Shown here piece by piece: positions 146-55,083 of a DNA stretch of 64,000 nucleotides. This stretch comes from a virus. Under the pieces are notes generated by a model that saw only the letters and a list, made by a program, of their open reading frames with translations, did not search any database and was not told the origin of the DNA. Position numbers and translations under genes: made by a program. Numbering within the stretch: position 1 is the stretch's first letter; every line of letters starts with the position of its first letter. The stretch lies in IMG/VR virus record IMGVR_UViG_3300045988_136221, positions 89,223 through 153,222 of that record; one strand, written 5' to 3'.

Positions 146-1105
146 ATGAAAGTAAAGAAAGCAGCGATAATTTATCATAAATCGGATTTAGATGGCGTTG
201 TATCGGCAGCCATCGCAACTATGTACGAAAACAGTAAAAACAAGGATGTTGTTTATATCCCGTATTCGTATGAAGATGATGTTAAGAAAGTTGTTGATAA
301 AGTAGATGAATGTGGGGTTGTTTATGTTCTTGACGTGTCTTTCGGATCCGATTCTAAAACGGTTTTCAAGAAATGGCTTGATGAAGGAAAGAGCCTGATG
401 TGGATAGACCATCATAAAGGAATTATTGAAGATAGTAAGACATGGGGGTTCGTAGTTCCAGGGTTGAGGAGAGTCGGTACGGCGGCTTGCGCGCTGGCCT
501 CGGACCTGCTGATGGGAAAGGTGCCGGCGATCGTCCGGTGCTTATCAGACTACGATGTATGGAATAAAGAATCTGAATTAGGCTGGGATACGGTAGTAGC
601 TGTCCAGTATGCCATGAGATCAAAAATAAGACTCAATGTGTTAATAGCATTGTCGTATTTGTATGACCATTTTAAAGAAAATATGAAGGACAATGAGGTG
701 GATTTAATTTTCTATGATCTCGCTAAAGAAGGACGTGCTATAATTAACTACATGGCCGGCAAAAACGAACAAGATGTAAGTAGGTATTCGTTCGAAGCTT
801 ACGTTGATGAGGTGAAGGTCGTGGCGATGAATACCGTAGAATCAGGCTCTAAAGTATTTGATTCTCTTACACCTGACTGGTTAGACGGTAGAAAAATTAA
901 AGCCCTGATGCCATTTTGTATCACGCCAGGTGGTAAAGTCCGGTTCTCTCTTTATGAATGCGTGGAAGACGGCGTAGATTGCTGTGAGGTAAGTAAGAGA
1001 TTCGGTGGTGGAGGACATGCTGGTGCTGCTGGGTTTGTTATAGACGTATCAAGTGACCAGTTTAAGGACTTCCTTGAAAACCGAAAACTTACTTCAATAC
1101 AATAA
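146..1105 (+). CDS. DHH/DHHA1-family phosphoesterase (RecJ/NrnA-like)
   Basis: Translated ORF carries DHH-family motifs in order: 'HKSDLDGVVSAA' (motif I DxD), 'MWIDHHKG' (DHH motif III), and the DHHA1 'FGGGGHAGAAGF' (GGGH) motif near the C-terminus. Confidence 0.75.
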   Translation: MKVKKAAIIYHKSDLDGVVSAAIATMYENSKNKDVVYIPYSYEDDVKKVVDKVDECGVVYVLDVSFGSDSKTVFKKWLDEGKSLMWIDHHKGIIEDSKTWGFVVPGLRRVGTAACALASDLLMGKVPAIVRCLSDYDVWNKESELGWDTVVAVQYAMRSKIRLNVLIALSYLYDHFKENMKDNEVDLIFYDLAKEGRAIINYMAGKNEQDVSRYSFEAYVDEVKVVAMNTVESGSKVFDSLTPDWLDGRKIKALMPFCITPGGKVRFSLYECVEDGVDCCEVSKRFGGGGHAGAAGFVIDVSSDQFKDFLENRKLTSIQ

Positions 1106-1122
1106 ATAAGGTCATGTTTTAA

Positions 1123-1154
1123 ATAGGATTGGTTTATATCAATCCTATTTTTTT
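1123..1154 (+). terminator. Rho-independent terminator after DHH gene
   Basis: Stem ataggatt/aatcctat with 10-nt loop, followed by T7 run. Confidence 0.5.
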
Positions 1155-1759
1155 GTGGTGTGTGGAGAGGTGGATGTAATGGATGAGATAAAATGTTTAT
1201 ATTATGAAGGTTAGGCAAAAAGGTTTATGTGATGAGGGAGAGGTAAAAAAATGGTTTGTGTAATGGGAGAGAGGGGATACCTACCACGAACCTCCCGCCC
1301 CCGAAACGCGTTTTCTCCCCCACGCCCCCTTCGCTGGAAAACCGGAAACGCGTTTTTACCTCAATCCTACAAACTCTCTGATTATCAACCATTTATTTAA
1401 ATTATTGATAATCAATGTATTGTTATAATATATTGATTATAAGCCACTTAAATAAACATATATCCCACATATTAATGTACGCGTATAATACCGTTCTTGT
1501 GTATTTTGTAACTTTCTGATAATCAGATAATAGAATCGAAATTAATACAAGTTAACAAAAAAAAGATAGCATATATATATGTAATACTGAAAAAGGTTGT
1601 ATATTTGCACAGTATTCAAGCGAGAATATTGGTGTTACATAATGAAGCTATATATATACTCCCGTTGGGTGTATTGTATGGTGATACCTTTTGCCTCTTT
1701 GCGTTGTAAAGTGGTAATATATTAGGGTGATATTGTTTAACAAATAAATACATAATGTT

Positions 1760-2299
1760 ATGATTACAAAGAAAAACGTTAACAAACTGCAAAATTCCGT
1801 TATTAAAGAAAATGCATCAAATTTGGTAGGTGCGGTAAAGTTGTATAATGCTTTATTTGCAAATGGTTCTGATCTTAAAGCAATTTGTAAGAAGTTGGAA
1901 ATACCAGCCGAATATGCTGTAAAGGTTGCAGCACTCGCAAAGGACAAAAAACGGCTGGTTGCCGTGTGTAGCCAAATGCTGCCTAAAGTAGATAATACCT
2001 TTGTTAAGTTTTCCCTATATTCTAAAGTATATAAGGATAACAAGGTGGACAAGGAAAAAGGAATTGAGGCAAAAACGGCTGACTGGTGCGCTGATAATGT
2101 GGTTTATGGCGGGGAATATAAATCTTTCGGTTTTTCAACCGCTGAGACATTGGAAGCTAAAAAAAGCGCAAAGTGGCTTGTTAAAGAAACGGACGAGTAT
2201 AAAGCTACTTATGTAGCCGTTAAGGTCAAATCTTATTCAATTCGTACCGTTGCAAAGTGTGTGAGTGAATATTTGGCGCACGAAAGCAACCAGCAGTAA
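1760..2299 (+). CDS. hypothetical protein (179 aa)
   Basis: ORF track; first gene after 650-bp non-coding region; no motif recognised. Confidence 0.5.
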   Translation: MITKKNVNKLQNSVIKENASNLVGAVKLYNALFANGSDLKAICKKLEIPAEYAVKVAALAKDKKRLVAVCSQMLPKVDNTFVKFSLYSKVYKDNKVDKEKGIEAKTADWCADNVVYGGEYKSFGFSTAETLEAKKSAKWLVKETDEYKATYVAVKVKSYSIRTVAKCVSEYLAHESNQQ

Positions 2300-2774
2300 A
2301 AAAGGTTAGGCGCGTACCGTTAAACGCGTCTGTACGCCGTTGTCAGTGGGTGAACGTCCCGCGTATGCTTTAGACTAAAGCTGACAAAACAGAGAGTTAT
2401 TTTACATATTGGGGATAAATATACCGTTATCGAAGCCGTTGGTATTTTAAAGAATCGGTATTACTGCATGTACTGCATTGAATAAATGTAGTTATGTTAG
2501 GTATGTTGGTACAGTTTGGAAAACATACCGTTGTACGTGGTTTGTCTCCATATCGAAACGTGTCTTACTTGTCCACACGCAAAATAGGATAGGGCTACGG
2601 AGAATCGTAGGGCGCAAACATGTAGCCTACCATGTAGGAACATGGAGCGTCAAAACGCAAGGACACAATCGCCTTTATTTGTGGCTAAGTTGTGTAGCAG
2701 ACGGAAAATATAATAACAACATAGTACGGGCCCACACTCAAGAACTACGTACTAATTGCGGGCTGTTGGTTGTA

Positions 2775-2802
2775 GCATAAAATTCGTATAGGATAGGAAT
2801 GC
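2775..2802 (+). other. hairpin with conserved loop (..TTCGTATAGGATAGG..), member of intergenic hairpin family
   Basis: Stem gcat/atgc around loop aaaattcgtataggatagga; loop resembles the other family members (GTGARGATAGG core); sits directly 5' of the GGTTCGATTCCGG box. Confidence 0.35.
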
Positions 2803-2808
2803 GCGTTC

Positions 2809-2853
2809 GGTTCGATTCCGGAACAACCACTGAATCAAAAATAATATAACAAC
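2809..2853 (+). promoter_or_regulatory. GGTTCGATTCCGG box + A-rich leader, 45 nt upstream of ATG 2854 (copy a)
   Basis: 13-nt GGTTCGATTCCGG (identical to tRNA T-arm consensus) followed by ..CAC.. and AATAATATAACAAC; same element at the same spacing upstream of genes at 4823 and 6070. Confidence 0.45.
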
Positions 2854-3060
2854 ATGGAAAGGAAATTTAAAAATCACTTGGTAGATGTACGCGGATTGTC
2901 CAGGAAAGAAGCCGCAAAGAAACGGAATGCAGCGTATCGTGAATTTATGTTGTATCGTGATATTCACGAAGCATATCATTCCGAAATAGGAAAAGATAAA
3001 TGCAAGCGTAAAACACATACATCACGAACATACGTGAAAGAAAACATAAACAGTATTTAA
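2854..3060 (+). CDS. hypothetical small basic protein (68 aa)
   Basis: ORF track; preceded by conserved box; followed by terminator. Confidence 0.5.
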   Translation: MERKFKNHLVDVRGLSRKEAAKKRNAAYREFMLYRDIHEAYHSEIGKDKCKRKTHTSRTYVKENINSI

Positions 3061-3067
3061 ATAGGAA

Positions 3068-3104
3068 TAGGGTTGTTCTGAATATCGGAACAGCCCTATT
3101 TTCG
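3068..3104 (+). terminator. Rho-independent terminator
   Basis: Stem tagggttgttc/gaacagcccta (one G-U) with loop tgaatatcg, then TTTT. Confidence 0.55.
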
Positions 3105-3261
3105 TATCCTACTCTTTCTATTTACGGGTAGGATATTCTGAGAGTGAACGGAGGATGCGGACAATATTGGTCTAAAACGAAACAAAAATAGTGACATTCG
3201 GATATAACGCCGGTATTTTGTCTATATATAATCGCTCTAATTGGTCTAAAACGAAACTAAA

Positions 3262-3307
3262 GGCGGTTTTCGGACCCAAAATAGGGTGTCGGATGCCGCC
3301 TTTTTCG
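3262..3307 (+). terminator. Rho-independent terminator-like hairpin
   Basis: ggcgg...ccgcc stem with structured interior, followed by TTTTT. Confidence 0.4.
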
Positions 3308-3413
3308 TCTCTATGGAATTGAAATTAGGCTTATTGTATTTTTCTTAAAAATAAGGTATTCTTGATTATCAATTAGTTAGGTTTTATAATATCCGTATTT
3401 TCGGACATACTTA

Positions 3414-3599
3414 TTGTATAATTTTTGTTTTATGTGGTGGTTTTTATTAGTCGCTGACCTATATTTTTTATCGGTTGGTATCCGTTCTATGTTAGAGTAC
3501 GGACCGGATCAGTATAATGTTGTAATGGTCTTTTGTTTTTTGTTATTGGCTATTGTTATAGGTTTGAATATCTATCTTGACAGGAGTAGGAGGCGGTAG
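3414..3599 (+). CDS. small hydrophobic membrane peptide (61 aa), putative
   Basis: ORF track; almost entirely hydrophobic (two predicted TM segments) with basic RRR tail; isolated ORF in otherwise non-coding 1.1-kb region. Confidence 0.35.
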   Translation: MYNFCFMWWFLLVADLYFLSVGIRSMLEYGPDQYNVVMVFCFLLLAIVIGLNIYLDRSRRR

Positions 3600-3786
3600 G
3601 GCGTGGGCTGAAGGTTCTCTATTCTCTCTATGGAATGATATTCTATCCAAACAACCCACACTCCATGCCATAGTATAAGCCTGTAGCGTCCTACTTAAGC
3701 CGGTAGTAGGTGTTAGAGCGTAGGTCCTATGCGGAAAGCGAGAAAGATGGACGGGAGTTGGAGAGGGGGAGAGGGAGGGCACTTCC

Positions 3787-4190
3787 TTCCCACAAAATTC
3801 AACAGATCAGAGTTTTAAAACAGTATTCTGTAGGTTTTCCCACAAAATTCAACAGATCAGAGTTTTAAAACAGTATTCTGTAGGTTTTCCCACAAAATTC
3901 AACAGATCAGAGTTTTAAAACAGTATTCTGTAGGTTTTCCCACAAAATTCAACAGATCAGAGTTTTAAAACAGTATTCTGTAGGTTTTCCCACAAAATTC
4001 AACAGATCAGAGTTTTAAAACAGTATTCTGTAGGTTTTCCCACAAAATTCAACAGATCAGAGTTTTAAAACAGTATTCTGTAGGTTTTCCCACAAAATTC
4101 AACAGATCAGAGTTTTAAAACCGCATAATGTGAGTTCCTTCCCACAAAATTCAACAGATTAGTAGTTTAAAACAGCATTCTATAGGTTAG
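3787..4190 (+). repeat. 50-bp direct tandem repeat array, ~8 units (6 perfect + 2 degenerate)
   Basis: Unit ttcccacaaaattcaacagatcagagttttaaaacagtattctgtaggtt repeats head-to-tail with exact 50-bp period from 3787; units 7-8 diverge (4121 onward). Each unit contains the 10-bp palindrome GTTTTAAAAC. Confidence 0.9.
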
Positions 4191-4219
4191 TAGTAAGTGA
4201 AATGTTTAACAATTAAAAT

Positions 4220-4489
4220 ATGGACAATATGAACGTATATGATTTTGCACCTGATTTAGATTTAAGTAAAGAAGTAGAAGGTTCCATTTTTGGGGTAAGA
4301 GGAATGGAAGGCAGTGATGGTATAGTATATGCTAAGGTAGTTAGCTGTATAGACGTCAAGGATTACAGTTGTGAGAGATGTATTTTTTATGATTGTTATA
4401 AGGATACATGTTCGTTATGGGGTAGTGATAGTTGTATAGATGGGGATTGGTTTTGTAGGTACGAACAGGCTGCCATAGAGGGGGAGTAG
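4220..4489 (+). CDS. Cys-rich small protein (89 aa)
   Basis: ORF track; 10 Cys in C-terminal half; immediately downstream of tandem array. Confidence 0.5.
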   Translation: MDNMNVYDFAPDLDLSKEVEGSIFGVRGMEGSDGIVYAKVVSCIDVKDYSCERCIFYDCYKDTCSLWGSDSCIDGDWFCRYEQAAIEGE

Positions 4490-4500
4490 GCGGCGTCTTG

Positions 4501-4540
4501 GGCTAAGGCCTGCGGTTGTAGGTAGGACGTAGGCCTTAGC
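4501..4540 (+). other. hairpin (10-bp stem ggctaaggcc/ggccttagc), conserved-loop family
   Basis: Loop tgcggttgtaggtaggacgta resembles the family loop; directly after stop of 4220..4489. Confidence 0.45.
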
Positions 4541-4594
4541 AGAACAAGAACAGTTTATTGTGGAACGTAAAAATAAAAAGGAGGAGATAGTGAT

Positions 4595-4675
4595 ATGAAA
4601 AAGGCATTTAAGATATTTTCTATTATGTTCGTCATAGAAATAGTGCTGATAGCTATTTTAGATGCTATGGCGTAA
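4595..4675 (+). CDS. 26-aa hydrophobic micropeptide (MKKAFKIFSIMFVIEIVLIAILDAMA), putative
   Basis: Not in ORF track (too short). Strong SD aaaaaGGAGGagatagtgat 7 nt before ATG 4595; TAA at 4673. Confidence 0.3.
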   Translation: MKKAFKIFSIMFVIEIVLIAILDAMA

Positions 4676-4717
4676 GTAATAAAAATTTCTTCATTAATTT
4701 TCTTATGCTTTAGACAG

Positions 4718-4747
4718 AGTGCCCCCGTCTGCGAAGATCGGAGCACT
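4718..4747 (+). other. hairpin with conserved loop (ccCGTCTGCGAAGATCGG)
   Basis: Stem agtgc/gcact; loop matches family core GTSYGYGARGAT. Confidence 0.4.
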
Positions 4748-4777
4748 TGCTTTATGGGATTCATGGTGAAATAGGTC

Positions 4778-4822
4778 GGTTCGATTCCGGCGATCTCACA
4801 CAATATTAAAAACAAATGAGGT
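4778..4822 (+). promoter_or_regulatory. GGTTCGATTCCGG box + leader, 45 nt upstream of ATG 4823 (copy b)
   Basis: GGTTCGATTCCGGCGATCTCACACAATATTAAAAACAAATGAGGT-ATG; aligns with copies at 2809 and 6027. Confidence 0.45.
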
Positions 4823-5227
4823 ATGTTAAAAGAAGAATTTGAAGACTTTATTAAGAGAGAGGTAAGTGATGAACTTTACAAAGATATAGAGGTAGTGTAT
4901 AATGCTCTGCCTGAATATATGGATAAGTTGTATTTTGCAGACGCTATATTAAAAGATACAGGGAAGACTGTAAATGTTTTGTCGGCTTTAGGAGTACACA
5001 TACGTGAATTGAATAACGCACGCATAATCGAAAAAGAAAAGATTAGATCGTGTGCGTATGATTTGATACATAAGGCTCATGACGAAGATGATTTAACAGC
5101 AAGGGAGATTGCTGTTAAATTGATCGGAGAAAGGGAAACGGTAGCGTATTCTGTAAGGGAGGGTCTGCCATTATGGGAGCATGATAAAAAGTTTATAATA
5201 GAGTTAATGAAGGAGGAAAGAAAATGA
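4823..5227 (+). CDS. hypothetical protein (134 aa)
   Basis: ORF track; ATGA stop/start overlap with next gene. Confidence 0.55.
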   Translation: MLKEEFEDFIKREVSDELYKDIEVVYNALPEYMDKLYFADAILKDTGKTVNVLSALGVHIRELNNARIIEKEKIRSCAYDLIHKAHDEDDLTAREIAVKLIGERETVAYSVREGLPLWEHDKKFIIELMKEERK

Positions 5228-5571
5228 AAGATGGCATTACATTACATCCGGAATATGGATTGAATCCGTCTATAGAAGTCTGCATGATATGTGGCGAAGA
5301 GATGGGGATTGCTTTATTAGGGAATAACATCAAAGGGCAGGCACCGCATCATATATGCACGGGCGGAGTATGTGACAATTGCAAAAAGATAATAGATGAT
5401 GGTGGTTGTTTTATTATCGAGGTTGAAGATGGTTCAGATCAAAAGAATCCGTATCGTACAGGAAGATATTGCGCGATAAAGAAAGGGGTGGCAAAGAAAA
5501 TGTTTGGAAAGGAACATAGCATTGTGTACATGGAAAAGTCTGCATTCAGTCAAATGATACCACAAAAATGA
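5224..5571 (+). CDS. zinc-ribbon-containing protein (115 aa)
   Basis: ORF track; CxxC..C..C..CxxC pattern (CMICGEE...HHICTGGVCDNCKK); AGGAGG SD upstream. Confidence 0.55.
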   Translation: MKDGITLHPEYGLNPSIEVCMICGEEMGIALLGNNIKGQAPHHICTGGVCDNCKKIIDDGGCFIIEVEDGSDQKNPYRTGRYCAIKKGVAKKMFGKEHSIVYMEKSAFSQMIPQK

Positions 5572-5894
5572 AGAAGGATATGTTTACAAAAGAAGAGCGA
5601 TTATTCATATGGAAACAAGTATGTGATATAATCGATAGGTCAGAGGATGGGGAATACATATGCATTGCATTAAGAAATGTAGTATTTTATTTTTTCAAAA
5701 CACATAAAGAAATAAAAATTATGAGTTTAGACGAAATGGTGAGAATATATTTCCCGGAATTGAGGGCAAGGAGAAGTATGGCTACAGAACCAGAGGAAAT
5801 ATGGAGGATATATGGATGGTTTGGTTGTATTAGTCCAGAAACGAAGGAGGTAAGACTGAATATTGTAAAAGATATCATAAAAGAATTAGAATAG
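5568..5894 (+). CDS. hypothetical protein (108 aa)
   Basis: ORF track; overlaps previous stop. Confidence 0.5.
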   Translation: MKKDMFTKEERLFIWKQVCDIIDRSEDGEYICIALRNVVFYFFKTHKEIKIMSLDEMVRIYFPELRARRSMATEPEEIWRIYGWFGCISPETKEVRLNIVKDIIKELE

Positions 5895-5941
5895 TATTTT
5901 TGTTAACCTATTTTATTCATCAAATTAAGTTTTTGGGTTTT

Positions 5942-5980
5942 GGCATGTCGGTTCGTGAGGATAGGCATGCCTATTTTTAT
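5942..5980 (+). terminator. terminator-like hairpin with conserved loop (TCGGTTCGTGAGGATAGG)
   Basis: Stem ggcatg/catgcc, followed by tatttttat. Confidence 0.5.
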
Positions 5981-6026
5981 GTCATAGAGGGATGACGCGG
6001 CGTGCCGGCATGTATGTACCGGTTCT

Positions 6027-6069
6027 GGTTCGATTCTGGGCATCTCACAAACAATAAAACAAAAGAGTT
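6027..6069 (+). promoter_or_regulatory. GGTTCGATTCTGG box + leader, 43 nt upstream of ATG 6070 (copy c)
   Basis: GGTTCGATTCTGGGCATCTCACAAACAATAAAACAAAAGAGTT-ATG. Confidence 0.45.
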
Positions 6070-6303
6070 ATGAGAATATACAAGAATGATATTATAAAGG
6101 CGTCAGCGATAAGCACCAGCGACGACAGGGGATTATTACTGTGTTCAATAACAGATTCGGGATTCACGTCTATAGCTGGTGTAATATCGGCTATTAAAGA
6201 CAAGTTGCCAAACAAAGATCATAAGAAGATGGTTTTTGAAATTTTGAACGATACGAAAAAAGAATACGGAAGATATAATAATTGCGGAGGAAAAGTGTTA
6301 TGA
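6070..6303 (+). CDS. hypothetical protein (77 aa)
   Basis: ORF track. Confidence 0.5.
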   Translation: MRIYKNDIIKASAISTSDDRGLLLCSITDSGFTSIAGVISAIKDKLPNKDHKKMVFEILNDTKKEYGRYNNCGGKVL

Positions 6304-6515
6304 AAAAAAATATAAAGAGCTTTTTATTGCCTTTAATATTGGCGAGCATGGTTGATGATCCTTATAGAGTAAGACGTATTCATAGTAACAATCATCCTAA
6401 ACCAGTAAAAAGGGATGAAAAGAACAGGATAGAGAGGGAGTTCGATATCAATGGAAAGAAAATAATGGCTTATTCAAGAAAGGATGCCATTAAAAGATTA
6501 AAACATAAGAAGTAG
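6282..6515 (+). CDS. hypothetical basic protein with N-terminal hydrophobic segment (77 aa)
   Basis: ORF track; possible signal/TM segment FLLPLILASMV. Confidence 0.45.
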   Translation: MRRKSVMKKNIKSFLLPLILASMVDDPYRVRRIHSNNHPKPVKRDEKNRIEREFDINGKKIMAYSRKDAIKRLKHKK

Positions 6516-6562
6516 AAAACGGATTTTTATGTTAATGTTAGTTTTTTCATTTTTATTGAAAG

Positions 6563-6600
6563 GAGCGCCGGCCTGTGAAGGTATGCGCTCTTTGTATTTG
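6563..6600 (+). terminator. terminator-like hairpin with conserved loop (CGGCCTGTGAAGGTAT)
   Basis: Stem gagcgc/gcgctc followed by tttgtatttg. Confidence 0.5.
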
Positions 6601-6624
6601 TATAATGCATAAAACAATAATAAT

Positions 6625-6879
6625 ATGACAGAGAATAGTATAGACGTAAATATCGTACCTGTAAAGAATGGTATGAAACGTGTTGTGGTATCATATTACC
6701 ATTATTCACGCAAGGAGAAAGATCGCATGAGTTCTCAAACGGATTACGTGTGGGAAACAGGGAATGAAGAGATGTTTAAATACTTTGAGGCCAGGAGGAC
6801 AAAAGTGTTTTATAGTCAGATTCGTGCCATGTGTAGATTCTATGGCAAGAAAAATGTACGTAAATACAAAAAGCTATGA
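6625..6879 (+). CDS. hypothetical protein (84 aa)
   Basis: ORF track; ATGA overlap with next gene. Confidence 0.5.
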   Translation: MTENSIDVNIVPVKNGMKRVVVSYYHYSRKEKDRMSSQTDYVWETGNEEMFKYFEARRTKVFYSQIRAMCRFYGKKNVRKYKKL

Positions 6880-7685
6880 TATTAAAAACGACAACCAACG
6901 AGTTTTGTTTCATTAACGTAAGTTTCTATGAAACAATAGCAGATCCTCGCTATTTCTTTGAACAGGATTATGAAGAGATGCCGGAATATGAGGAAGAATC
7001 GGATTTTGATTTTGATTCTTATTGCAATAAGTTTATTCCTTTTGTACAGGAATGGGCGAATGAGGTAAGTGAACGCCTTTACGGATATGGCGTGAATAAC
7101 ATAAAGGTAACATCGGTCGGACATCCGAGAGAATACAATTATTATACTGATTGGATGAATGTGGAGGTAGAATTTTGTGATGAATGGAGGCAAAAGATGT
7201 TATCTAACATTGGTAAGATTGTCAATGATGATAAATGCAAGAAGTATGCGGAAGCCAATAATCGGTCAGTATCAGGATACATCTTTTTAGGACCTGATGA
7301 TTTAAAGGAATTTGAAAAGGAAATAATAGAAAAGAAGTCGGATTCGAAATATGATATAACAATATTATTAAATATGTATCTAACTTTGGCTTTTGTAAAA
7401 GAATTTGGATTTGAAGCCGAAAAAGCGTGGAATGATATAACAGGACATGCTTACGAATGTTTGTCGTATTCTGATTTTGCAACAATAGAAACACTTATAC
7501 CAGAAGGTTCGGAATATTTATTCAAAGACGTTTACACAGCGAAGGCCGACGAATTGTATCATCATGTCCTGGATAAATTCGGATGGGCGTGGCGTGATCC
7601 GAAATATAAATCGGAAACAGAATTATGCGCGATGTTAAAGTGGGCAAAAGAGAAAGGCTTGACCATTGAAGAGTTAAGTATTTAA
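6876..7685 (+). CDS. hypothetical protein (269 aa)
   Basis: ORF track. Confidence 0.55.
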   Translation: MILKTTTNEFCFINVSFYETIADPRYFFEQDYEEMPEYEEESDFDFDSYCNKFIPFVQEWANEVSERLYGYGVNNIKVTSVGHPREYNYYTDWMNVEVEFCDEWRQKMLSNIGKIVNDDKCKKYAEANNRSVSGYIFLGPDDLKEFEKEIIEKKSDSKYDITILLNMYLTLAFVKEFGFEAEKAWNDITGHAYECLSYSDFATIETLIPEGSEYLFKDVYTAKADELYHHVLDKFGWAWRDPKYKSETELCAMLKWAKEKGLTIEELSI

Positions 7686-7698
7686 TTGTTAAACATAA

Positions 7699-7730
7699 GG
7701 CAGTAGTGGTGCGTGAGTATAGGTGCTGCC
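7699..7730 (+). other. hairpin with conserved loop (..GGTGCGTGAGTATAGG..)
   Basis: Stem ggcag/ctgcc directly after stop of 6876..7685. Confidence 0.4.
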
Positions 7731-7997
7731 GTTAAATTATTTTATAATATGAAAAAGGAAGAGATTCAAACTATTTTATACACAATCAAAGAAGGAGACA
7801 GTATTAAGATCAAAGTACAAGACAAAAGTGAAGAAATAAGATTGCGGGATCATGTAAGAAGAACGCAGAAATACGGATACCGGTTTTGCTTATCTCATTT
7901 GCATGATGGGATTTTCTATCTGGAGAAGTTAGAAGAGGGGGATAAAGATAAATACTATAGAGTAATCAACAGAGGAAATGGAAAGACCGGAGTATAA
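7713..7997 (+). CDS. hypothetical protein (94 aa)
   Basis: ORF track. Confidence 0.45.
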   Translation: MSIGAAVKLFYNMKKEEIQTILYTIKEGDSIKIKVQDKSEEIRLRDHVRRTQKYGYRFCLSHLHDGIFYLEKLEEGDKDKYYRVINRGNGKTGV

Positions 7998-8271
7998 TAA
8001 GCTACGTAAAATGGCTAAGACTACTCCAGGTCTGATAGTGGACGAGGCGCAAAACATGATGCGTGTATCGCTGTATGATAATGGGGAACTTAAGAAGATC
8101 GTAGTAGTAATGAAATGCGATTCTTTTTTACAGTCAAAAAGTAACATAGAAAAGATAATGTTATTATCATCTTCTATAGAAGATAGAAAAAACAAAGAAA
8201 AAAATAAAACAAAATCAGAAAATGAACAGAATAACAAAAATAAGAGAAGAAATAGGAGGAAAACAGGTTGA
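7978..8271 (+). CDS. hypothetical protein with K/N-rich tail (97 aa)
   Basis: ORF track. Confidence 0.45.
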   Translation: MERPEYNKLRKMAKTTPGLIVDEAQNMMRVSLYDNGELKKIVVVMKCDSFLQSKSNIEKIMLLSSSIEDRKNKEKNKTKSENEQNNKNKRRNRRKTG

Positions 8272-8605
8272 TTTGACCTTTTATGGGCGTTTTTGCAGCC
8301 TTATTGAAGGTGATAGAAAGATAATACTAAAGGCAATAAAAAACGGTCGTAAGAAAGGCGTAATCGGAGCCATTCAGCCTGGAAGACATGATAGAATTTG
8401 GACCACATGGGCTATTGCTTTTGAGGATCTGAAGGTAGGGGATACGGTAGAGTTTAGTACATCCGGGAAATACAATCCAGGTTTTCATTCTACAGAAAAG
8501 TATGTAGGATGTGTAGAATGGATAAAAGGATCGGAATGTGCGATAAAAACCGGCAAAGGGATGGCAGTAGTATTAATTAAACACGTGGAAAGGGTAGTAA
8601 GATGA
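8222..8605 (+). CDS. hypothetical protein (127 aa)
   Basis: ORF track; 50-nt overlap with previous ORF so true start may be internal. Confidence 0.45.
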   Translation: MNRITKIREEIGGKQVDLTFYGRFCSLIEGDRKIILKAIKNGRKKGVIGAIQPGRHDRIWTTWAIAFEDLKVGDTVEFSTSGKYNPGFHSTEKYVGCVEWIKGSECAIKTGKGMAVVLIKHVERVVR

Positions 8606-8883
8606 AATTGAGAGAATTTGTAGAACTCTTTGATAAGAATGATGTAAAGGATTTGTTTAAGTCATTATCTTTATGTATGGAATACGTAAGGATAGATTTA
8701 CATGTATTTAATGTAGGTGCTTATGTTACGTGCCTGTACAGTAATGATCTTGAACAGCTTTCAACGATGAAAGGGTGCGCTATATACGCGATAGTAGAAG
8801 TACCATGTTTATTTGAGGCATTTATGGAATATGCTTCACCGGAATTGAAAGCATATTATGATAAACTAACGAAAGAAGTGTGA
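8602..8883 (+). CDS. hypothetical protein (93 aa)
   Basis: ORF track; ATGA overlap. Confidence 0.5.
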   Translation: MKLREFVELFDKNDVKDLFKSLSLCMEYVRIDLHVFNVGAYVTCLYSNDLEQLSTMKGCAIYAIVEVPCLFEAFMEYASPELKAYYDKLTKEV

Positions 8884-8884
8884 C

Positions 8885-9367
8885 ATGAAAGAGGAAGTAG
8901 AACGGATAAAGAAGTTGGTTGGCATAGATCATGATAGATGGGAGCAACCTTGTACATGTGATAAATGTAAGAATATGTGTAAGGTTCCTTGTATTGGTAC
9001 GCCAAAAGACATAGAGGCTATCATAGATGCCGGATACGCTGATAGGTTAAAAGAAACAATGTGGATGGTAGGGTATCTTGCAGTGAAGGAAAAACCAATA
9101 GCGATGATCCAGCCGACAGAGAAAGACGGGTGGTGCGCATTCCGCCGGCCAGACGGTCTCTGCGAGCTGCATGACCGTGGACTAAAGCCGACCGAAGGAG
9201 TTCTGGCTTCCTGTAAGATGATTGAAGAAGACAATGTTCCAACATACGAAACGTCTGTACTTAGAGCAGTGGCTAATGAGTGGGTTAAGGTGGAGAACTT
9301 TGGAGATATAATGAGGGTCGTTTTTAAATTTTTGCATGAAAATGAACGTAGAAAACAAATTAGATAA
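8885..9367 (+). CDS. Cys-rich protein (160 aa)
   Basis: ORF track; CTCDKCKNMCKVPC cluster. Confidence 0.5.
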   Translation: MKEEVERIKKLVGIDHDRWEQPCTCDKCKNMCKVPCIGTPKDIEAIIDAGYADRLKETMWMVGYLAVKEKPIAMIQPTEKDGWCAFRRPDGLCELHDRGLKPTEGVLASCKMIEEDNVPTYETSVLRAVANEWVKVENFGDIMRVVFKFLHENERRKQIR

Positions 9368-9746
9368 AGTAGTTAAGATCCTAAAAGAAAAAGGATTTGT
9401 GGTATATAGAAAGGGCGGAAAGGAGCCGGGTGTATTTTACGCCAAAGAAGGTGACAGCCGGATAGGATTCGTTTATCCCAACAACGGATATATATATGAT
9501 AGAATAAAAATGTGGTCTTTTTCAAGGATATATAAACCACATAAGAAAACCGGGTCTTCGTGTTTAATGAGCGTCAGCGACGAATTTACGATAGAGAATG
9601 CGATTAAGAACATAGAGGATAGACTGTGGGTAAATTATGTAAAAGACGGTAACAGAAAACGACCAGAAGAATACAATAATATAAGAGAATTTGTTGGTAG
9701 CTTCACTAAATTCTACAACTCTGTAGAATTAGTTGAGGTTAAGTAG
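9336..9746 (+). CDS. hypothetical protein (136 aa)
   Basis: ORF track. Confidence 0.5.
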   Translation: MKMNVENKLDKVVKILKEKGFVVYRKGGKEPGVFYAKEGDSRIGFVYPNNGYIYDRIKMWSFSRIYKPHKKTGSSCLMSVSDEFTIENAIKNIEDRLWVNYVKDGNRKRPEEYNNIREFVGSFTKFYNSVELVEVK

Positions 9747-9767
9747 TTTTCCATGTAAGTTAGTTAC

Positions 9768-9803
9768 CGGCACTGGTCTGTGAAGATAGGTGTCGTTTTT
9801 TTT
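9768..9803 (+). terminator. Rho-independent terminator with conserved loop (TGGTCTGTGAAGATAG)
   Basis: Stem cggcac/gtgtcg (one G-U) followed by T8 (9796-9803). Confidence 0.65.
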
Positions 9804-9820
9804 AAGAAAGGAGGATAAAG

Positions 9821-10072
9821 ATGGAGAAAAGAGACAAGGAAATGCCTTACGAGGTAATCATACAGGAGAGAAACAAAGTGGATTTATACGGTAACGTAGT
9901 ATATTATATATATTGGTTTGATAAATATGGGAACGATATTACAAACGAATGGAAATTCTGGAGCAAGGGTCCGAAAAAGAAATATGATAGAGTCAATCGC
10001 TATTTAACGGATAGTTGGCTAAAGGAATACTGTAAGAACAACAATTTAAAAATAAGTAGAATAAAGGAATGA
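9821..10072 (+). CDS. hypothetical protein (83 aa)
   Basis: ORF track; AGGAGG SD upstream. Confidence 0.55.
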   Translation: MEKRDKEMPYEVIIQERNKVDLYGNVVYYIYWFDKYGNDITNEWKFWSKGPKKKYDRVNRYLTDSWLKEYCKNNNLKISRIKE

Positions 10073-10159
10073 AGCCGGGAAAGCATGCTATGATAACAAA
10101 CGAGTATGGTGTCTTGGATATTATAAAAGAAAAATTTGACAACATAAATATAATGGAAT

Positions 10160-10528
10160 ATGGATCTAAATAAATTGTATAAAGAAATAGAAGAAGCGGA
10201 GGTCAATCTGAATGCAAAAAGATTAAAGTACATCAAAGAAGCATTAACGGAGAACGGTGGAAGCGTAAAGCTAAAATTTAAAGAGTTTAAAGAATGGCAA
10301 GAAGCTAATAACGTGTTTGACTTTGATGATCAGTTTCCAGTGATAATAGAAATTGATGGAAATTCTATGTATTTAACGGAAGTGTATGTCAAAAAAAACG
10401 ATTTTCGTGTAGTCATGCTGGATTATACTGATATGACTTTTTATGATTATAGCAATCCAGGGGAAAATGAACAGGTTGCTTATTTTATTAACTATTGCTT
10501 AAATCAAGACAAAGATGGGAAAGAGTAG
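10160..10528 (+). CDS. hypothetical protein (122 aa)
   Basis: ORF track. Confidence 0.5.
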   Translation: MDLNKLYKEIEEAEVNLNAKRLKYIKEALTENGGSVKLKFKEFKEWQEANNVFDFDDQFPVIIEIDGNSMYLTEVYVKKNDFRVVMLDYTDMTFYDYSNPGENEQVAYFINYCLNQDKDGKE

Positions 10529-10703
10529 AAAAGATTATGAGAAGTATCTTAACTCAATATCTCCAGATAGAGACGATGAGGCATGGATCATTGGAGGAAA
10601 GAACAGGTATTGCGGTAGAGAGAATTATGGCACTATGATCAAAAGGTATGATCCTATTGGTTTTAACGTAGGGTACAGGGAGTGGGCAGAACAGCCAGAT
10701 TGA
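10515..10703 (+). CDS. hypothetical protein (62 aa); stop codon lies at the IS right-end boundary
   Basis: ORF track; TGA 10701-10703 coincides with start of sequence shared with second TnpB element. Confidence 0.4.
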   Translation: MGKSRKDYEKYLNSISPDRDDEAWIIGGKNRYCGRENYGTMIKRYDPIGFNVGYREWAEQPD

Positions 10704-10870
10704 CATACTCCCATAGCTAAAGCGAATGGGATTCTTGGATACAAACGTATGGAACCCCTGCATTTCTGCAACCGGAATTACCCATACTTTCCAATTCGGA
10801 AATGCCCTTCCGAAGTATATTACGGGCTGCAAGAACATCACGGTCGTTTACCGCTCCGCACGCTGGGCAT
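10700..10870 (-). ncRNA. putative TnpB omegaRNA (reRNA) overlapping tnpB 3' end
   Basis: By established TnpB biology the guide RNA scaffold is encoded at the 3' end of tnpB and the right end. Here the right end terminates ~17 nt past the stop. Extent not verifiable by eye. Confidence 0.3.
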
Positions 10871-11856
10871 ACCCACGTGCGGTCGCGTAACGACAATCCT
10901 TTATTAATGCAGCCACATTCGCAAGTTTTGGAAGAAGGATACCATTTGTCAATCTTGTGTATCGTTACTCCATACTTTGAAGCAACATACGTAAGTTTGT
11001 TAATAAAAGAAGAATGACTGAGGTCAGAAACTTTCTTTCCCCACAAACGTTTCATTCCTTCAATGTTTAGATCTTCAATGAAAATATAATCATACTGTTT
11101 GCATAACTGGTGTGCTAATCCCCATTGAAAATCCGATCGAAGATCGTTTATTTTACGATACGCTTGTTGTAGTTCAAACAGTCTCCTTCTTCTATTATTG
11201 GATCCTTTCTTTGCATTAGAAAACCGTTTGTTTAGTTTTCTAATCTTGTTTTGATATTGTTTGAAGAATAGTGGAGAATCAATTTTGTTCCCATCACTTT
11301 TAGTTAGATAAGTTTTCAGGCCAAAATCCAATCCGATAGATGCACCATCATGTGTCTTTCTATAAGAGTTTATAAGATTATGATCTGTAATAATTATCAG
11401 ACTATATCGATGACATGTTTCTCTAACTATTCTTATTTGTTTAACATTACCTTCGTAGACCCTACTGTATGAGAATTTAAATCGTTTCTTTCCTTTGTTG
11501 ATTGTTAAACAATTACCATTCAGGGTAAACCCTCCTTGTTTGAAAACAAAAGAGTTAAAACAATCAGCTCTTTTGAACTTAGGTGGTCGTTTAGCCAACT
11601 TCTTGAAGAAACGATTGTATGCTGAGTCTAACCTTTGAATAATTTCTTGTGTTGTTTGGGAATGAAGAAGATTTCTCTTAATTCTTTTAGAGAAATGCTT
11701 TTGCATCTTACCAACTGGTATGTATTTTCCAAACAGTTTGTAATATCTACGTTGTAGGGATAAAGCATGATTCCATACAAAACAGCATTCGCGAAGCATC
11801 TTATCAAGATACTTCGTTTTCTTGGAATGATAGATGTTGTATTTGTATGAAATCAT
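10717..11856 (-). CDS. tnpB: TnpB (IS605 OrfB-family RNA-guided nuclease)
   Basis: 379 aa; C-terminal zinc finger (CECGCINKG..CPACGAVNDRD) and RuvC-III-like motif (DVLAARNILRKG); D..E RuvC segments (GLDFGLK; IFIEDL); typical TnpB architecture. Confidence 0.85.
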   Translation of the reverse strand: MISYKYNIYHSKKTKYLDKMLRECCFVWNHALSLQRRYYKLFGKYIPVGKMQKHFSKRIKRNLLHSQTTQEIIQRLDSAYNRFFKKLAKRPPKFKRADCFNSFVFKQGGFTLNGNCLTINKGKKRFKFSYSRVYEGNVKQIRIVRETCHRYSLIIITDHNLINSYRKTHDGASIGLDFGLKTYLTKSDGNKIDSPLFFKQYQNKIRKLNKRFSNAKKGSNNRRRRLFELQQAYRKINDLRSDFQWGLAHQLCKQYDYIFIEDLNIEGMKRLWGKKVSDLSHSSFINKLTYVASKYGVTIHKIDKWYPSSKTCECGCINKGLSLRDRTWVCPACGAVNDRDVLAARNILRKGISELESMGNSGCRNAGVPYVCIQESHSL

Positions 11857-47527: not shown

Positions 47528-48075
47528 ATTCCTTTTAAGTAAGTATCAGGTGCAACAAAATCACTTATTGTCTTTATTATATGTATAGTATCTATAAAAT
47601 ATTTATCAACATCCATAGAAAGTTGAGGACGAAGATCTGAATCGTTTGTCTTATCTGTTATATAGAAATAGTACAGAACATCCTCCAGATAAAATGTAAG
47701 ATAAATATCCTCTGTGACATTTCCATTATTGAAATAGCAATTGATGCCGGACCCAGATGGAGTCATATGGCAATCTATACTTTGGGTATCTCCCATAGTA
47801 CACACGTAATTGGAACTGGCAATATCAACCGCATATTTTCCAACATTTATACCACCACTTTCCCTCGATCTCGTGGTAAGTATATGAACGGCATTTTTCC
47901 AAGTGGAAAGAGGTGCAGATATACTAACGGCGAAAACGGGAATTATCGTCTGAAATAAATCATATGACAAAAACCTTCTTCTCATTATTTTATTTTTTTT
48001 GCAAGATAGCATTTTTTTCATAACAAAAGAAACCAGTTCTCTATCATCGCTGACTGAGAACTGGTAAGAAAACAA
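47524..48075 (-). CDS. hypothetical protein (183 aa)
   Basis: ORF track. Confidence 0.5.
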   Translation of the reverse strand: MFSYQFSVSDDRELVSFVMKKMLSCKKNKIMRRRFLSYDLFQTIIPVFAVSISAPLSTWKNAVHILTTRSRESGGINVGKYAVDIASSNYVCTMGDTQSIDCHMTPSGSGINCYFNNGNVTEDIYLTFYLEDVLYYFYITDKTNDSDLRPQLSMDVDKYFIDTIHIIKTISDFVAPDTYLKGI

Positions 48076-54618: not shown

Positions 54619-54759
54619 GATAAAACATTTTTGTTATGAGACAAAGGTAGCCAAAAATCAAGCATATCATAAAAAATTAAGCCATCTAACTTCTCAGTCT
54701 GATGGCTTAAAAATAATATGAAAAAAAATTATAATCTGACGCAAATCGTCAAGTTACGC

Positions 54760-55083
54760 TTATGCATTGTATTTGTACCCATTTCTATGAATAAACCTTC
54801 CCGATTCGAACCTTTCCACATCATCCGGTCCAATAGGTCCGCAGTCTTCCCTCCTTGCCTCATACCACAGCCCAGGCTTACGAAGTCGGCAAGTTATGAT
54901 ATAATTGAAGCAATTGTGCGTAAAATGAAAAACAGATCCTACAGGGAAATACCTATCAGCTTGAAATACGATTCTTTTTCGTTTAGTATCAAACGTGATA
55001 TCCCCTACTATCTTAGCCACGTAATAGCTTCTGCCATTTAACGTTTCATCTGTTTGTGGTATCCAATAATAACCTTTTGTCAT
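54760..55083 (-). CDS. hypothetical protein (107 aa; start revised to internal Met MTKGYYW)
   Basis: Track ORF 54760..55152, but codons 1-23 would be read through the terminator hairpin and A/T tracts at 55095-55135. ATG at 55081-55083 is the plausible start. Confidence 0.45.
   Translation of the reverse strand: MTKGYYWIPQTDETLNGRSYYVAKIVGDITFDTKRKRIVFQADRYFPVGSVFHFTHNCFNYIITCRLRKPGLWYEARREDCGPIGPDDVERFESGRFIHRNGYKYNA

What the first reader, a model, noticed from the sequence alone, without database searches (positions are those of the whole stretch)
2775..9803. Family of intergenic hairpins sharing a conserved loop sequence (core ..GT-Y-GTGARGATAGG..)
At least seven stem-loops have unrelated stems but loops of the same sequence family: 2775-2802 (..ttcgtataggatagg..), 4501-4540 (tgcggttgtaggtaggacgta), 4718-4747 (cccgtctgcgaagatcgg), 5942-5971 (tcggttcgtgaggatagg), 6563-6590 (cggcctgtgaaggtat), 7699-7730 (..ggtgcgtgagtatagg..) and 9768-9795 (tggtctgtgaagatag, followed by T8). 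Ordinary intrinsic terminators do not conserve loop sequence. A conserved 16-18-nt loop on variable stems suggests a sequence-specific RNA-binding factor, for example an antiterminator, a processing endonuclease site or a translational regulator. All sit just after stop codons in the early-type + strand block.
Basis: seen in the sequence. Interest (0 to 1): 0.65.

Follow-up and report, generated by a model that had tools for sequence, protein, structure and literature searches.

The report
Capped terminator hairpins of gut phages
Five of the seven flagged hairpins, plus two more in the window, belong to an apparently undescribed RNA hairpin family with a variable stem and a nearly fixed 16-base structured tip, which recurs in unrelated phages of gut Bacteroidales after genes and just upstream of tRNA genes.

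Summary
Five of the seven hairpins (4718-4747, 5942-5971, 6562-6591, 7700-7729, 9767-9796) form a true family. The hairpins at 2775-2802 and 4501-4540 do not belong.

The "conserved loop" is a folded cap: a Y-G pair, a 1x1 mismatch, a near-invariant G.U wobble, three covarying pairs and a GNRA (mostly GUGA) tetraloop. It sits on a variable GC-rich basal stem.

Two further members flank the virion RNA polymerase gene on the minus strand (54679-54708, 48034-48063). A structural descriptor finds 6 sites in the window against 0.13 in shuffles.

The family persists in relatives down to 35% polymerase identity. The exact cap TGGTCTGTGAAGATAG also occurs in many crAss-like genera, two gut microviruses and a Bacteroidaceae prophage, on at least 46 different basal stems.

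About half of the non-tRNA-adjacent copies are followed by U-tracts. One fifth lie 1-11 nt upstream of a tRNA gene.

There is no Rfam match, and the one literature search of the cap sequence found nothing. The motif was absent from 110 kb of Bacteroidaceae chromosome and 7.3 Gb of plasmids.

Most likely these are intrinsic terminator or 3'-end hairpins whose cap works with host machinery. Why the cap is conserved remains open.

The parts
4718..4747 (+). Family member h3, AGTGCCC-CCGTCTGCGAAGATCG-GAGCACT. The cap has a C.C mismatch and a GCGA loop. It lies after the small ORF ending near 4675 and is followed by a weak U-rich tail and a tRNA-like minihelix.
   Evidence: R1 gives 36.9 bits and the MFE fold agrees. 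In relatives, G-C to A-T and T-A to C-G double changes occur in the outer stem, and C.A changes to T-A.
5942..5971 (+). Family member h4, GGCATGT-CGGTTCGTGAGGATAG-GCATGCC, followed by TATTTTTAT. It lies after ORF 5568-5894.
   Evidence: R1 gives 38.7 bits. In relatives, T.G changes to T-A at two pairs.
6562..6591 (+). Family member h5, GGAGCGC-CGGCCTGTGAAGGTAT-GCGCTCT, followed by TTGTATTTG. It lies after ORF 6282-6515 and 34 nt before the ATG at 6625.
   Evidence: R1 gives 38.9 bits. The MFE is -18.7 kcal/mol with z = -4.4.
7700..7729 (+). Family member h6 (full stem 7699-7730), GCAGTAG-TGGTGCGTGAGTATAG-GTGCTGC. It lies after ORF 6876-7685, has no good U-tract, and is 21 nt before the ATG at 7750.
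   Evidence: R1 gives 35.2 bits and the fold has z = -3.0. In relatives, G.T changes to G-C and G.G to T.G.
9767..9796 (+). Family member h7, CCGGCAC-TGGTCTGTGAAGATAG-GTGTCGT, followed by T8. It lies after ORF 9336-9746. Its cap is identical to that of crAss001, DAC15 and two microviruses.
   Evidence: R1 gives 38.2 bits. In relatives, GTGA changes to GCGA and G.T to G-C.
54679..54708 (-). It has an A.A mismatch, a GAGA loop and an A-T in place of U-A, and is followed by AATTTTTTAT. It lies between ORF 54760-55152(-) and the promoter-like TACCTTTG upstream of the 2138-aa virion RNA polymerase gene.
   Evidence: R1 gives 22.0 bits, E 0.0018, and the site was not in the training set. It is also a descriptor hit.
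48034..48063 (-). It lies about 140 nt after the stop of the 2138-aa gene (48202-54618, -).
   Evidence: R1 gives 20.4 bits, E 0.005. A member lies about 100 nt after the stop of the homologous gene in the relative with 66-67% polymerase identity (L163 16542-16571).

Best explanation
**What it is.** These are sense-strand RNA hairpins of a modular type.
- A variable, usually GC-rich basal stem of 5-10 bp carries a conserved 16-nt cap.
- The cap reads 5'-Y N G U N N - G N R A - N N A U N G-3'. The commonest form is UGGUCU-GUGA-AGAUAG.
- It folds into a Y-G pair, a 1x1 non-Watson-Crick mismatch (G.A, A.A, C.A, C.C or U.C), a G.U wobble, three ordinary pairs and a GNRA tetraloop. A GNRAN pentaloop occurs occasionally.

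**What it most likely does.** In this window the hairpins lie directly after genes, and five of the seven are followed by a U-rich tract.
- The most likely function is an intrinsic terminator or attenuator for the host RNA polymerase, which afterwards stays as the 3'-terminal hairpin of the transcript.
- Copies 1-11 nt upstream of tRNA genes in related and crAss-like phages fit the same picture. RNase P cleavage at the tRNA 5' end would leave the hairpin plus a few nucleotides as the 3' end of the upstream RNA.
- The cap is conserved because it does something the basal stem cannot. It may be recognised by a component of the Bacteroidales cell, such as the termination, RNA-decay or processing machinery. 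Alternatively it may give a special folding property.

**Shown:**
- the structure, and selection on that structure;
- the orientation and positions of the copies;
- the association with U-tracts and with tRNA genes;
- the spread across unrelated phages.

**Inferred:**
- termination;
- 3'-end protection;
- the nature of any partner.
For: **Structure**
- MFE folds give outer stem, mismatch, 4 bp and tetraloop for h3, h5, h6 and h7, with z = -3.0 to -4.4 for the three short hairpin-only folds h5-h7. h4 adopts a different MFE fold in its 115-nt context.
- On 21 diverse members, 97.6% of cells are paired against 60.5% in shuffles. The covariation score is 1.09 against 0.27 (0 of 500 shuffles reach it). 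Slid controls give 0.13-0.18.
- Pair 10-21 is G.U in 19 of 21 members.
- About 150 relatives were aligned by their flanks, without selecting on structure. The frequent variants keep or improve pairing, with G-C to A-T and T-A to C-G double changes and G.T to G-C or A-T changes. The N of GNRA varies freely. Disruptive changes are nearly all singletons; one exception occurs in 17 sequences.
- The conserved G.U pair would be an A.C mismatch on the opposite strand, which points to sense-strand RNA.

**Not chance**
- The descriptor gives 6 hits in the window against 0.13 in shuffles, and 9 further hits in 281 kb of relatives.
- It gives 44 further hits in 558 kb of metagenome loci, where about 1 is expected.

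**Terminator-like context**
- The window members lie after stop codons, and five of the seven have U-rich tails.
- Members lie downstream of the virion RNA polymerase gene here and in a relative with 66-67% identity, though not at the same distance from the stop.
- One sits after the Ro60 gene followed by T7.
- The two microvirus copies are a basal stem of 5-7 bp plus the cap plus T6 or T9. One follows an annotated gene directly; the other record annotates only the capsid gene.
- Of 83 unique copies not next to a tRNA, 40 have at least 5 T in the next 8 nt.

**tRNA context**
- 20 of 103 unique copies have a tRNA gene starting 1-11 nt downstream, most often at 4-5 nt.

**Dependence on the cell rather than on one phage's protein**
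- The identical cap occurs in crAss001, DAC15, cr85_1, cr112_1, two Microviridae and a prophage.
- It sits on 46 different basal stems in metagenomes.
Against: - No transcript ends are available, so termination is inferred from anatomy alone.
- h6 and h3 have poor U-tracts.
- h5, h6 and h7 lie only 21-34 nt before the next start codon, with no room for a promoter. Efficient termination there would silence the downstream early genes unless there is read-through. These genes may also be read by the phage's own virion RNA polymerase.
- tRNA-adjacent copies usually lack U-tracts.
- A few copies are antisense to the flanking genes, upstream of antirepressor genes.
- The descriptor found nothing in 110 kb of Bacteroidaceae chromosome. 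A general host terminator type is therefore not supported, and it stays unexplained why only phages would use a host-recognised cap.
- Hairpin stability alone does not explain a conserved mismatch and wobble pair.
Confidence: 0.55

Rival explanations
1. Operator for a sequence-specific RNA-binding protein that regulates expression, through antitermination, translational repression or mRNA stabilisation. The cap would work like an IRE, boxB or coat-protein operator. The protein could be host-encoded, or could belong to a family shared by many Bacteroidales phages.
For: - The architecture matches classical protein operators: a non-paired position at a fixed distance from a small structured loop, a variable lower stem, and many copies per genome.
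- In the early block several copies lie 21-34 nt before the next start codon with no intervening promoter. Read-through or antitermination would therefore be needed.
- One copy has a GNRAN pentaloop, as in boxB.
- This rival is compatible with the best explanation, not exclusive of it.
Against: - The identical cap occurs in microviruses with a handful of genes and in phage families that share few genes. A phage-encoded partner common to all is therefore unlikely.
- There are at least 12 copies per genome, in late-gene and tRNA contexts too.
- No boxA-like companion sequence was noticed by eye; no search for one was run.
- No candidate protein was identified.
Confidence: 0.2
2. RNA-processing element tied to tRNA or tRNA-like maturation. 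The hairpin is a 5'-leader module that positions or assists RNase P or another endonuclease. The copies in this window are relics or re-uses next to tRNA-like minihelices.
For: - 20 of 103 unique copies end 1-11 nt before a tRNA 5' end, with a sharp mode at 4-5 nt. The tRNAs are of many identities: Glu, Arg, Ser, Asp, Lys and Met.
- In the window, h3 and h4 are followed by elements with an exact tRNA T-arm, GGTTCGATTCYGG, and an acceptor-like stem.
Against: - Most copies (about 80%) are not next to a tRNA, and many have classic U-tracts.
- Only 22 of 222 tRNAs in these loci have the hairpin.
- The microviruses carry no annotated tRNA genes.
- With 12-13 stacked layers, the helix is too short for RNase III as in the T7 early region.
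Confidence: 0.12
3. Recombination or mobility module. The cap spreads horizontally among co-infecting phages and promotes shuffling of gene cassettes, like the promoter-early stem-loops (PeSLs) of T4-type phages. Its sequence would be conserved by descent and spread, not by an RNA function.
For: - The same 16-18 nt occur in unrelated phage lineages.
- The copies sit between small accessory early genes and between tRNA cassettes, which are the variable parts of these genomes.
- The motif was absent from the sampled host chromosome.
Against: - The basal stems are unrelated, so what is shared is only 16 nt. That is short for homologous recombination.
- Variation inside the cap is structure-preserving: covarying pairs, free N in GNRA, and a mismatch kept as a mismatch of changing identity. 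This indicates selection on RNA structure.
- The orientation follows transcription.
Confidence: 0.08
4. Mini Y-RNA-like ligand of Ro60. The cap's 5' strand UGGUC..GA-AG-UAG resembles the Ro60-binding strand of animal Y RNAs, GGCUGGUCCGAAGGUAG. Both csAssE-Sib and crAss001-type phages encode Ro60/TROVE proteins.
For: - csAssE-Sib encodes a Ro60-related protein with a family member 61 nt after its stop.
- crAss001 and cr112_1 encode a TROVE or RNA-binding protein.
- Bacterial Y RNAs carry tRNA-like domains, and Ro60 contacts mainly the 5' strand GGUCCGA or GNCGAA(N)G (PMC4201824).
- The hairpins are associated with tRNAs and tRNA-like elements.
Against: - The bacterial motif GNCGAAN0-1G is not met. 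The loop varies as GNRA, not as CGAA.
- The fold is different: a self-contained hairpin, not a 5'/3' bulged stem.
- No Rfam Y RNA match appears even at E up to 10.
- The copies are not clustered within 4 kb and on the same strand as the Ro60 gene.
- Microviruses have the motif but no Ro60. The resemblance rests on a short string.
Confidence: 0.04

Closest known systems
Intrinsic (Rho-independent) terminators
   Same: GC-rich hairpin directly after a gene. It is followed by a U-tract in about half of the copies and often by the next promoter. GNRA tetraloops are common in terminators (own knowledge).
   Different: Ordinary terminators conserve no sequence between sites. Here 16 nt at the tip, including a mismatch and a G.U pair at fixed distances from the loop, are kept on unrelated stems and across unrelated phages. 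Some copies lack U-tracts and instead abut tRNA genes.
C(UUCG)G hairpins in intercistronic regions of phage T4 (Tuerk et al. 1988; own knowledge, not retrieved here)
   Same: A phage genome in which many intergenic hairpins with different stems share the same loop sequence. They are linked to mRNA 3' ends and stability.
   Different: In T4 only the tetraloop and its closing pair are shared, and exceptional thermodynamic stability explains that. Here the conserved unit also includes destabilising non-Watson-Crick positions 4 and 5 layers below the loop. It is restricted to phages of one host group.
Promoter-early stem-loop (PeSL) cassettes of T4-type phages (own knowledge)
   Same: Repeated stem-loop-containing intergenic modules between small early or accessory genes, shared among related phages.
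   Different: PeSLs are longer, include the promoter, and are conserved as whole sequences. Here only the hairpin tip is conserved, and its variation follows RNA pairing rules.
Lambda/P22 boxB (nut site) and other small protein-binding hairpin operators (IRE, MS2 or PP7 operator)
   Same: A short helix capped by a GNRA-type fold, with an unpaired or mismatched position at a fixed distance and a variable lower stem.
   Different: No boxA was noticed by eye. There are a dozen or more copies per genome instead of two. The motif occurs in late-gene, tRNA and microvirus contexts. No partner protein is known.
Ro60-binding helix of Y RNAs and bacterial YrlA (PMC4201824)
   Same: Short sequence resemblance of the 5' strand (UGGUC...GAAG.UAG). 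Association with tRNA-like structures and with phages that encode Ro60.
   Different: Different fold. The bacterial consensus GNCGAAN0-1G is not met. The copies are not linked in position to the Ro60 gene, and there is no Rfam hit.

Membership tests
Any Rfam 15 family | Match to a curated covariance model | tested here: not met
   Nothing reached the gathering threshold in the region; the only hit in the window is HEARO at 57604-57842. Positions 1100-11000 at E up to 10 gave no relevant hit. The h7 hairpin alone at E up to 10 gave only a chance miRNA hit at 13 bits.
Intrinsic terminator | Stable GC-rich hairpin downstream of a gene, on the sense strand | tested here: met
   All seven window members lie after ORF ends on the coding strand. 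Folds give -13.7 to -18.7 kcal/mol with z = -3.0 to -4.4.
Intrinsic terminator | U-rich tract immediately 3' of the hairpin | tested here: inconclusive
   A clear U-tract follows 5 of 7 window members (h4, h5, h7, 54679, 48034). It is weak for h3 and h6. Across phages, 40 of 83 non-tRNA-adjacent copies have at least 5 T in the next 8 nt, and 28 have 3 or fewer.
Intrinsic terminator | Transcripts end at the site | not testable with these tools
   No transcript data were available. This needs Term-seq or in vitro transcription.
boxB / nut antitermination site | GNRA-like loop on a short stem, paired with a boxA element, few copies downstream of early promoters, and a cognate N-type protein | tested here: not met
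   A GNRA-type loop is present. No boxA-like companion was noticed by eye, and no search for one was run. There are at least 12 copies per genome, including late-gene and tRNA regions, and copies in microviruses. No N-like protein was searched for.
Y RNA / YrlA | Ro60-binding motif (GGUCCGA or GNCGAAN0-1G) in a stem formed by the 5' and 3' ends, encoded near Ro60 on the same strand | tested here: not met
   The motif is only approximated. The fold is a local hairpin. Only one of at least 12 copies is next to the Ro60 gene of csAssE-Sib. There is no Rfam hit. Criteria are taken from PMC4201824.
RNase III processing site (T7 early-region type) | About two helical turns (roughly 20 bp) of double-stranded RNA, usually with an internal loop | tested here: not met
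   The hairpins have 12-13 stacked layers in total. The size criterion comes from own knowledge.
tRNA (for the T-arm-bearing elements next to h1, h3 and h4) | Cloverleaf with D, anticodon and T arms | tested here: not met
   ARAGORN finds no tRNA in the window. Only weak tRNA-clan hits appear (11-13 bits, E 3.8-7.3), with the D and anticodon arms deleted.

The most novel reading that the evidence does not exclude
The cap is a specific ligand, for example for a Bacteroidales RNA-decay, termination or tRNA-processing protein, or for a Ro60-type protein. Unrelated phages of these hosts (crAss-like, csAssE-like, microviruses and temperate phages) would have acquired it, convergently or by transfer, to mark their own transcript 3' ends and pre-tRNA leaders. 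It would be a phage-wide RNA tag that hijacks or evades a host RNA pathway.
Probability: 0.25. Interest if true: 0.85.

Novelty: new variant of a known kind. Interest (0 to 1): 0.62.

Why it matters
crAss-like phages are the most abundant viruses of the human gut, and almost nothing is known about how their RNAs are terminated, processed or stabilised.

This short motif is easy to recognise. It is kept across phage families that share almost no genes, down to 6-kb microviruses, and it was absent from the sampled host chromosome. That points to a common interaction with the Bacteroidales cell, and the interaction can be tested directly. crAss001 and DAC15 are cultured and each carries a copy.

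The motif also has practical uses:
- It is a new annotation feature that marks transcription-unit ends and tRNA cassette borders.
- It may help predict Bacteroidales hosts for phages, pending validation.
- It is a compact terminator part for Bacteroides engineering.

If the cap turns out to be only a folding aid, the finding is still a clean, previously uncatalogued RNA structural family.

Tried and rejected
1. **Plain sequence motif.** GTGARGATAGG with 2 mismatches is not enriched (26 matches against 28 expected). The signal needs the structure.
2. **tRNA genes.** ARAGORN finds none in the window. The T-arm-like 13-mers belong to truncated tRNA-like elements.
3. **Rfam.** No family matches.
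4. **N4-type hairpin promoters for the virion RNA polymerase.**
   - The published crAss-like polymerase study found no common motif upstream of early transcripts (10.1101/2020.03.07.982082).
   - The hairpins also occur outside early regions and in microviruses.
   - G.U conservation argues for RNA.
5. **Y RNA / Ro60.** This was followed through PMC4201824. The consensus and the architecture are not met, so it is kept only as a low-probability rival.
6. **Host-genome test.**
   - TnpB homologs were all on phage-sized contigs.
   - Host DNA was finally sampled through MetRS of a Bacteroidaceae contig: 110 kb from five species, with 0 hits. This is a small sample. It rules out a density like this phage's, but not rare use.
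7. **The 4.4-Mb contig with the motif (L215).** It turned out to be a phage-like region with Rad52, a PD-(D/E)XK nuclease, a helicase and tRNAs.
8. **The bacterial contig L192.** It carries the motif inside an element integrated by a serine recombinase into a comM-like gene.
9. **Plasmid database.** It gave only chance partial matches.
10. **Literature.** A search of the cap sequence returned 0 papers. The one Bacteroides transcriptome paper read mentions no such terminator motif.
11. **Built-in terminator scan.** It misses the family because the mismatch interrupts the stem.

Full report
**Context**

The window is a close relative (about 89% nucleotide identity over the flagged block) of the uncultured human-gut phage csAssE-Sib, OR575929.1, 151 kb.
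- Its 2138-aa gene at 48202-54618(-) is homologous to the virion-packaged RNA polymerase of crAss-like phages and to a structural protein of Cellulophaga phages phi17:2 and phi4:1.
- The flagged region is a block of about 20 small + strand genes next to the genome end of csAssE-Sib.

**Checking the observation**

All seven inverted repeats exist. Aligning them shows that the "conserved loop" of five of them is self-complementary.
- From the outside in, it has a Y-G pair, one non-pairing position, a G.U wobble, three ordinary pairs that differ between sites (CU/AG, UC/GG, GC/GU, CCU/AGG) and a GNRA tetraloop (GUGA or GCGA).
- ViennaRNA folds of h3, h5, h6 and h7 give exactly this shape, with z = -3.0 to -4.4 for the short hairpin-only folds h5-h7. 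In its 115-nt context h4 takes a different MFE fold.
- A covariance model (R1) was built from the five sites plus three variants from csAssE-Sib.
- R1 recovered the five at 35-39 bits. It also found two untrained intergenic sites on the minus strand, 54679-54708 (22.0 bits) and 48034-48063 (20.4 bits). These lie on either side of the polymerase gene.

- The first is a weak 4-bp stem inside a tRNA-like element.
- The second is a 13-bp perfect hairpin with an unrelated loop. Its stem is not maintained in csAssE-Sib.

A structural descriptor gives 6 window hits, against a mean of 0.13 and a maximum of 2 in 300 dinucleotide shuffles. h5 fails the descriptor only because its outermost cap pair is C.U. 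Because the descriptor was derived from the window, the independent evidence is what counts:
- 9 hits in 281 kb of relatives, where about 0.6 are expected;
- 44 further hits in 558 kb of metagenome loci, where about 1 is expected.

**Selection on structure**

About 150 close relatives from IMG/VR were aligned by flanking sequence, without any structural filter.
- Every frequent variant at a paired position keeps or improves the pair. h3 shows G-C to A-T and T-A to C-G double substitutions and C.A to U-A. There are several G.U to G-C or A-U changes.
- The N of GNRA changes freely among U, C and A.
- The 5' base of the mismatch changes G to A, which keeps the mismatch.
- Disruptive changes are almost all singletons.

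On 21 diverse members, 97.6% of cells pair against 60.5% in shuffles. The covariation score is 1.09 against 0.27 (0 of 500 shuffles), and slid controls give 0.13-0.18. Pair 10-21 is G.U in 19 of 21. Part of that set was chosen by structure, so the pairing percentage leans towards the model. The ortholog analysis does not have this bias.

A conserved G.U would be an A.C clash on the other strand. Together with the orientation of the copies, this says the functional form is sense-strand RNA.

**Distribution**

In the rest of csAssE-Sib the model finds further members:
- one 5 nt upstream of tRNA-Arg inside a tRNA cluster;
- a variant 6 nt upstream of tRNA-Met;
- one 61 nt after the Ro60 gene, followed by T7;
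- two on the strand opposite to annotated genes.

Relatives were chosen by decreasing polymerase identity, from 67% to 35%. They still carry members, including one downstream of the polymerase gene in the closest of them.
- Across these relatives the mismatch changes identity (G.A, A.A, C.A, C.C, U.C) but stays a mismatch.
- The G.U stays, and pentaloops of GNRAN type appear.

The very distant Bacteroides phage crAss001 has one copy whose 16-nt cap is identical to h7. It lies 5 nt upstream of tRNA-Glu.

A blastn of the h7 30-mer against 50,697 phage records found 46 records.
- Nearly all match the exact cap over 16-20 nt.
- Nearly all are crAss-like phages or other phages from gut or faecal samples, of several genera, plus two Microviridae.
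- In both microviruses the cap sits on a 5-7 bp basal stem followed by T6 or T9. One copy directly follows an annotated gene. The other record annotates only the capsid gene.
- The three-fold larger plasmid database gave only chance partial matches.

- 60 of them are flanked by at least 4 complementary bases, on 46 different basal stems.
- By chance fewer than 1% would have 5 flanking pairs.

The carriers that could be classified were:
- crAss-like and csAssE-like phages;
- other phage-like contigs;
- one element integrated by a serine recombinase into a comM-like gene of a Bacteroidaceae chromosome.

The motif was absent from 110 kb of chromosome from five Bacteroidaceae species. It was also absent from the first 50 kb of Cellulophaga phage phi17:2.

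**Contexts**

Over all loci there are 103 unique hairpins.
- 20 have a tRNA gene starting 1-11 nt downstream, most often 4-5 nt. The tRNAs have many identities.
- Of the other 83, 40 have at least 5 T in the next 8 nt and 15 have 4.

In the window, five of the seven have U-rich tails. The two that flank the polymerase gene are followed by Bacteroides-type promoter-like boxes.

Copies antisense to antirepressor genes are followed on their own strand by a bidirectional terminator. This suggests small antisense RNAs.

**Interpretation**

The common denominator of the two main contexts is that the hairpin would end up at the 3' end of an RNA.
- After intrinsic termination, the RNA ends with the hairpin plus a U tail.
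- After RNase P cleavage at the neighbouring tRNA, the upstream RNA ends with the hairpin plus 4-5 nt.

I therefore read the family as terminator or 3'-end hairpins with a specialised cap.

Microviruses and unrelated dsDNA phages share the cap. Its partner, if there is one, should therefore come from the cell, not from this phage. A folding role or horizontal spread of the module cannot be excluded.

In the early block three members lie only 21-34 nt before the next start codon. Strong termination there would need read-through.

Nothing here measures termination, cleavage or binding.

**Comparison with known systems**

- Rfam has no matching family.
- A full-text search of the cap sequence found nothing.
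- The closest precedents are ordinary intrinsic terminators and the C(UUCG)G intercistronic hairpins of T4. They differ because here destabilising non-Watson-Crick positions are conserved and the motif is host-group specific.
- boxB, IRE-type operators, T7 RNase III sites, PeSL cassettes and Y RNAs were considered. Each fails at least one defining feature; see the membership table.

**Verdict**

This is a real, statistically solid and apparently uncatalogued RNA structural family. It is best described as a new variant of terminator-type hairpins, and the reason for its conserved cap is unknown.

Noticed in passing
window 2768-2828, about 4765-4799, 5987-6048 (+): Three tRNA-like elements share an exact T-arm 13-mer, GGTTCGATTCYGG (at 2809, 4778 and 6027), and an acceptor-like stem. 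They lack D and anticodon arms. Each ends 20-30 nt upstream of a start codon (2854, 4823, 6070), and two of them follow family hairpins h3 and h4. ARAGORN calls no tRNA, and Rfam gives only weak tRNA-clan hits. The T stem improves (T.G to C-G) in csAssE-Sib. They may be decayed tRNA genes or processing signals of RNase P or RNase Z type.
   Followed up: partly
window about 3790-4190: About seven to eight tandem copies of a 50-bp unit (cccacaaaattcaacagatcagagttttaaaacagtattctgtaggtttt) lie in the non-coding stretch just upstream of the early gene block, near the position where the csAssE-Sib record ends. Function unknown.
   Followed up: no
window 57604-57842 (-) with ORF 56330-57562 (-): A HEARO RNA (Rfam RF02033, 101.8 bits) lies next to a 410-aa ORF. 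This fits an IscB-type RNA-guided nuclease element. A relative has an RRXRR+HNH ORF next to its polymerase gene (L165).
   Followed up: no
window 10717-11856 (-): A 379-aa IS605 OrfB/TnpB-type ORF closes the early block. Its 120 best homologs in the protein collection all lie on phage-sized contigs of at most 160 kb, which suggests a phage-resident TnpB lineage.
   Followed up: partly
L162 6999-7028(-), L167 16516-16546(-), L168 17311-17341(-): These family hairpins lie in antisense orientation 15-20 nt upstream of antirepressor (KilAC/ANT/AntA) genes. On their own strand each is followed by a bidirectional terminator. The layout is reminiscent of the sar antisense RNA that controls ant in phage P22 (own knowledge).
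   Followed up: partly
L162 22700-23010 (csAssE-Sib 72.7-73.0 kb, upstream of the Ro60 gene): The two annotated tRNAs (Tyr and Lys) are each flanked by similar extra sequences (GGTGAGGAGTTCGGTTAC... and GGTGATGGGGTTAGTTAC... on the 5' side, and ...CTTTTCC-containing trailers on the 3' side). These could form long stems around the tRNA. This is the place and layout where a YrlA-like Y RNA would be expected.
   Followed up: no
L215 3600-3690: A tRNA-like 3' end (CCCGG TTCGAAT CCGGG TTTCTCC ACCA, with an encoded CCA) has no detectable tRNA or tmRNA body upstream. It lies 55 nt before a family hairpin with a U-tract, in a phage-like region of a 4.4-Mb contig.
   Followed up: no
window 1260-1345: A short, strikingly GC- and C-rich stretch (cctaccacgaacctcccgcccccgaaacgcg...cccccacgccccc) lies inside an otherwise AT-rich 650-nt non-coding region upstream of the first early gene. 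It contains a direct repeat of gaaacgcgttttt.
   Followed up: no
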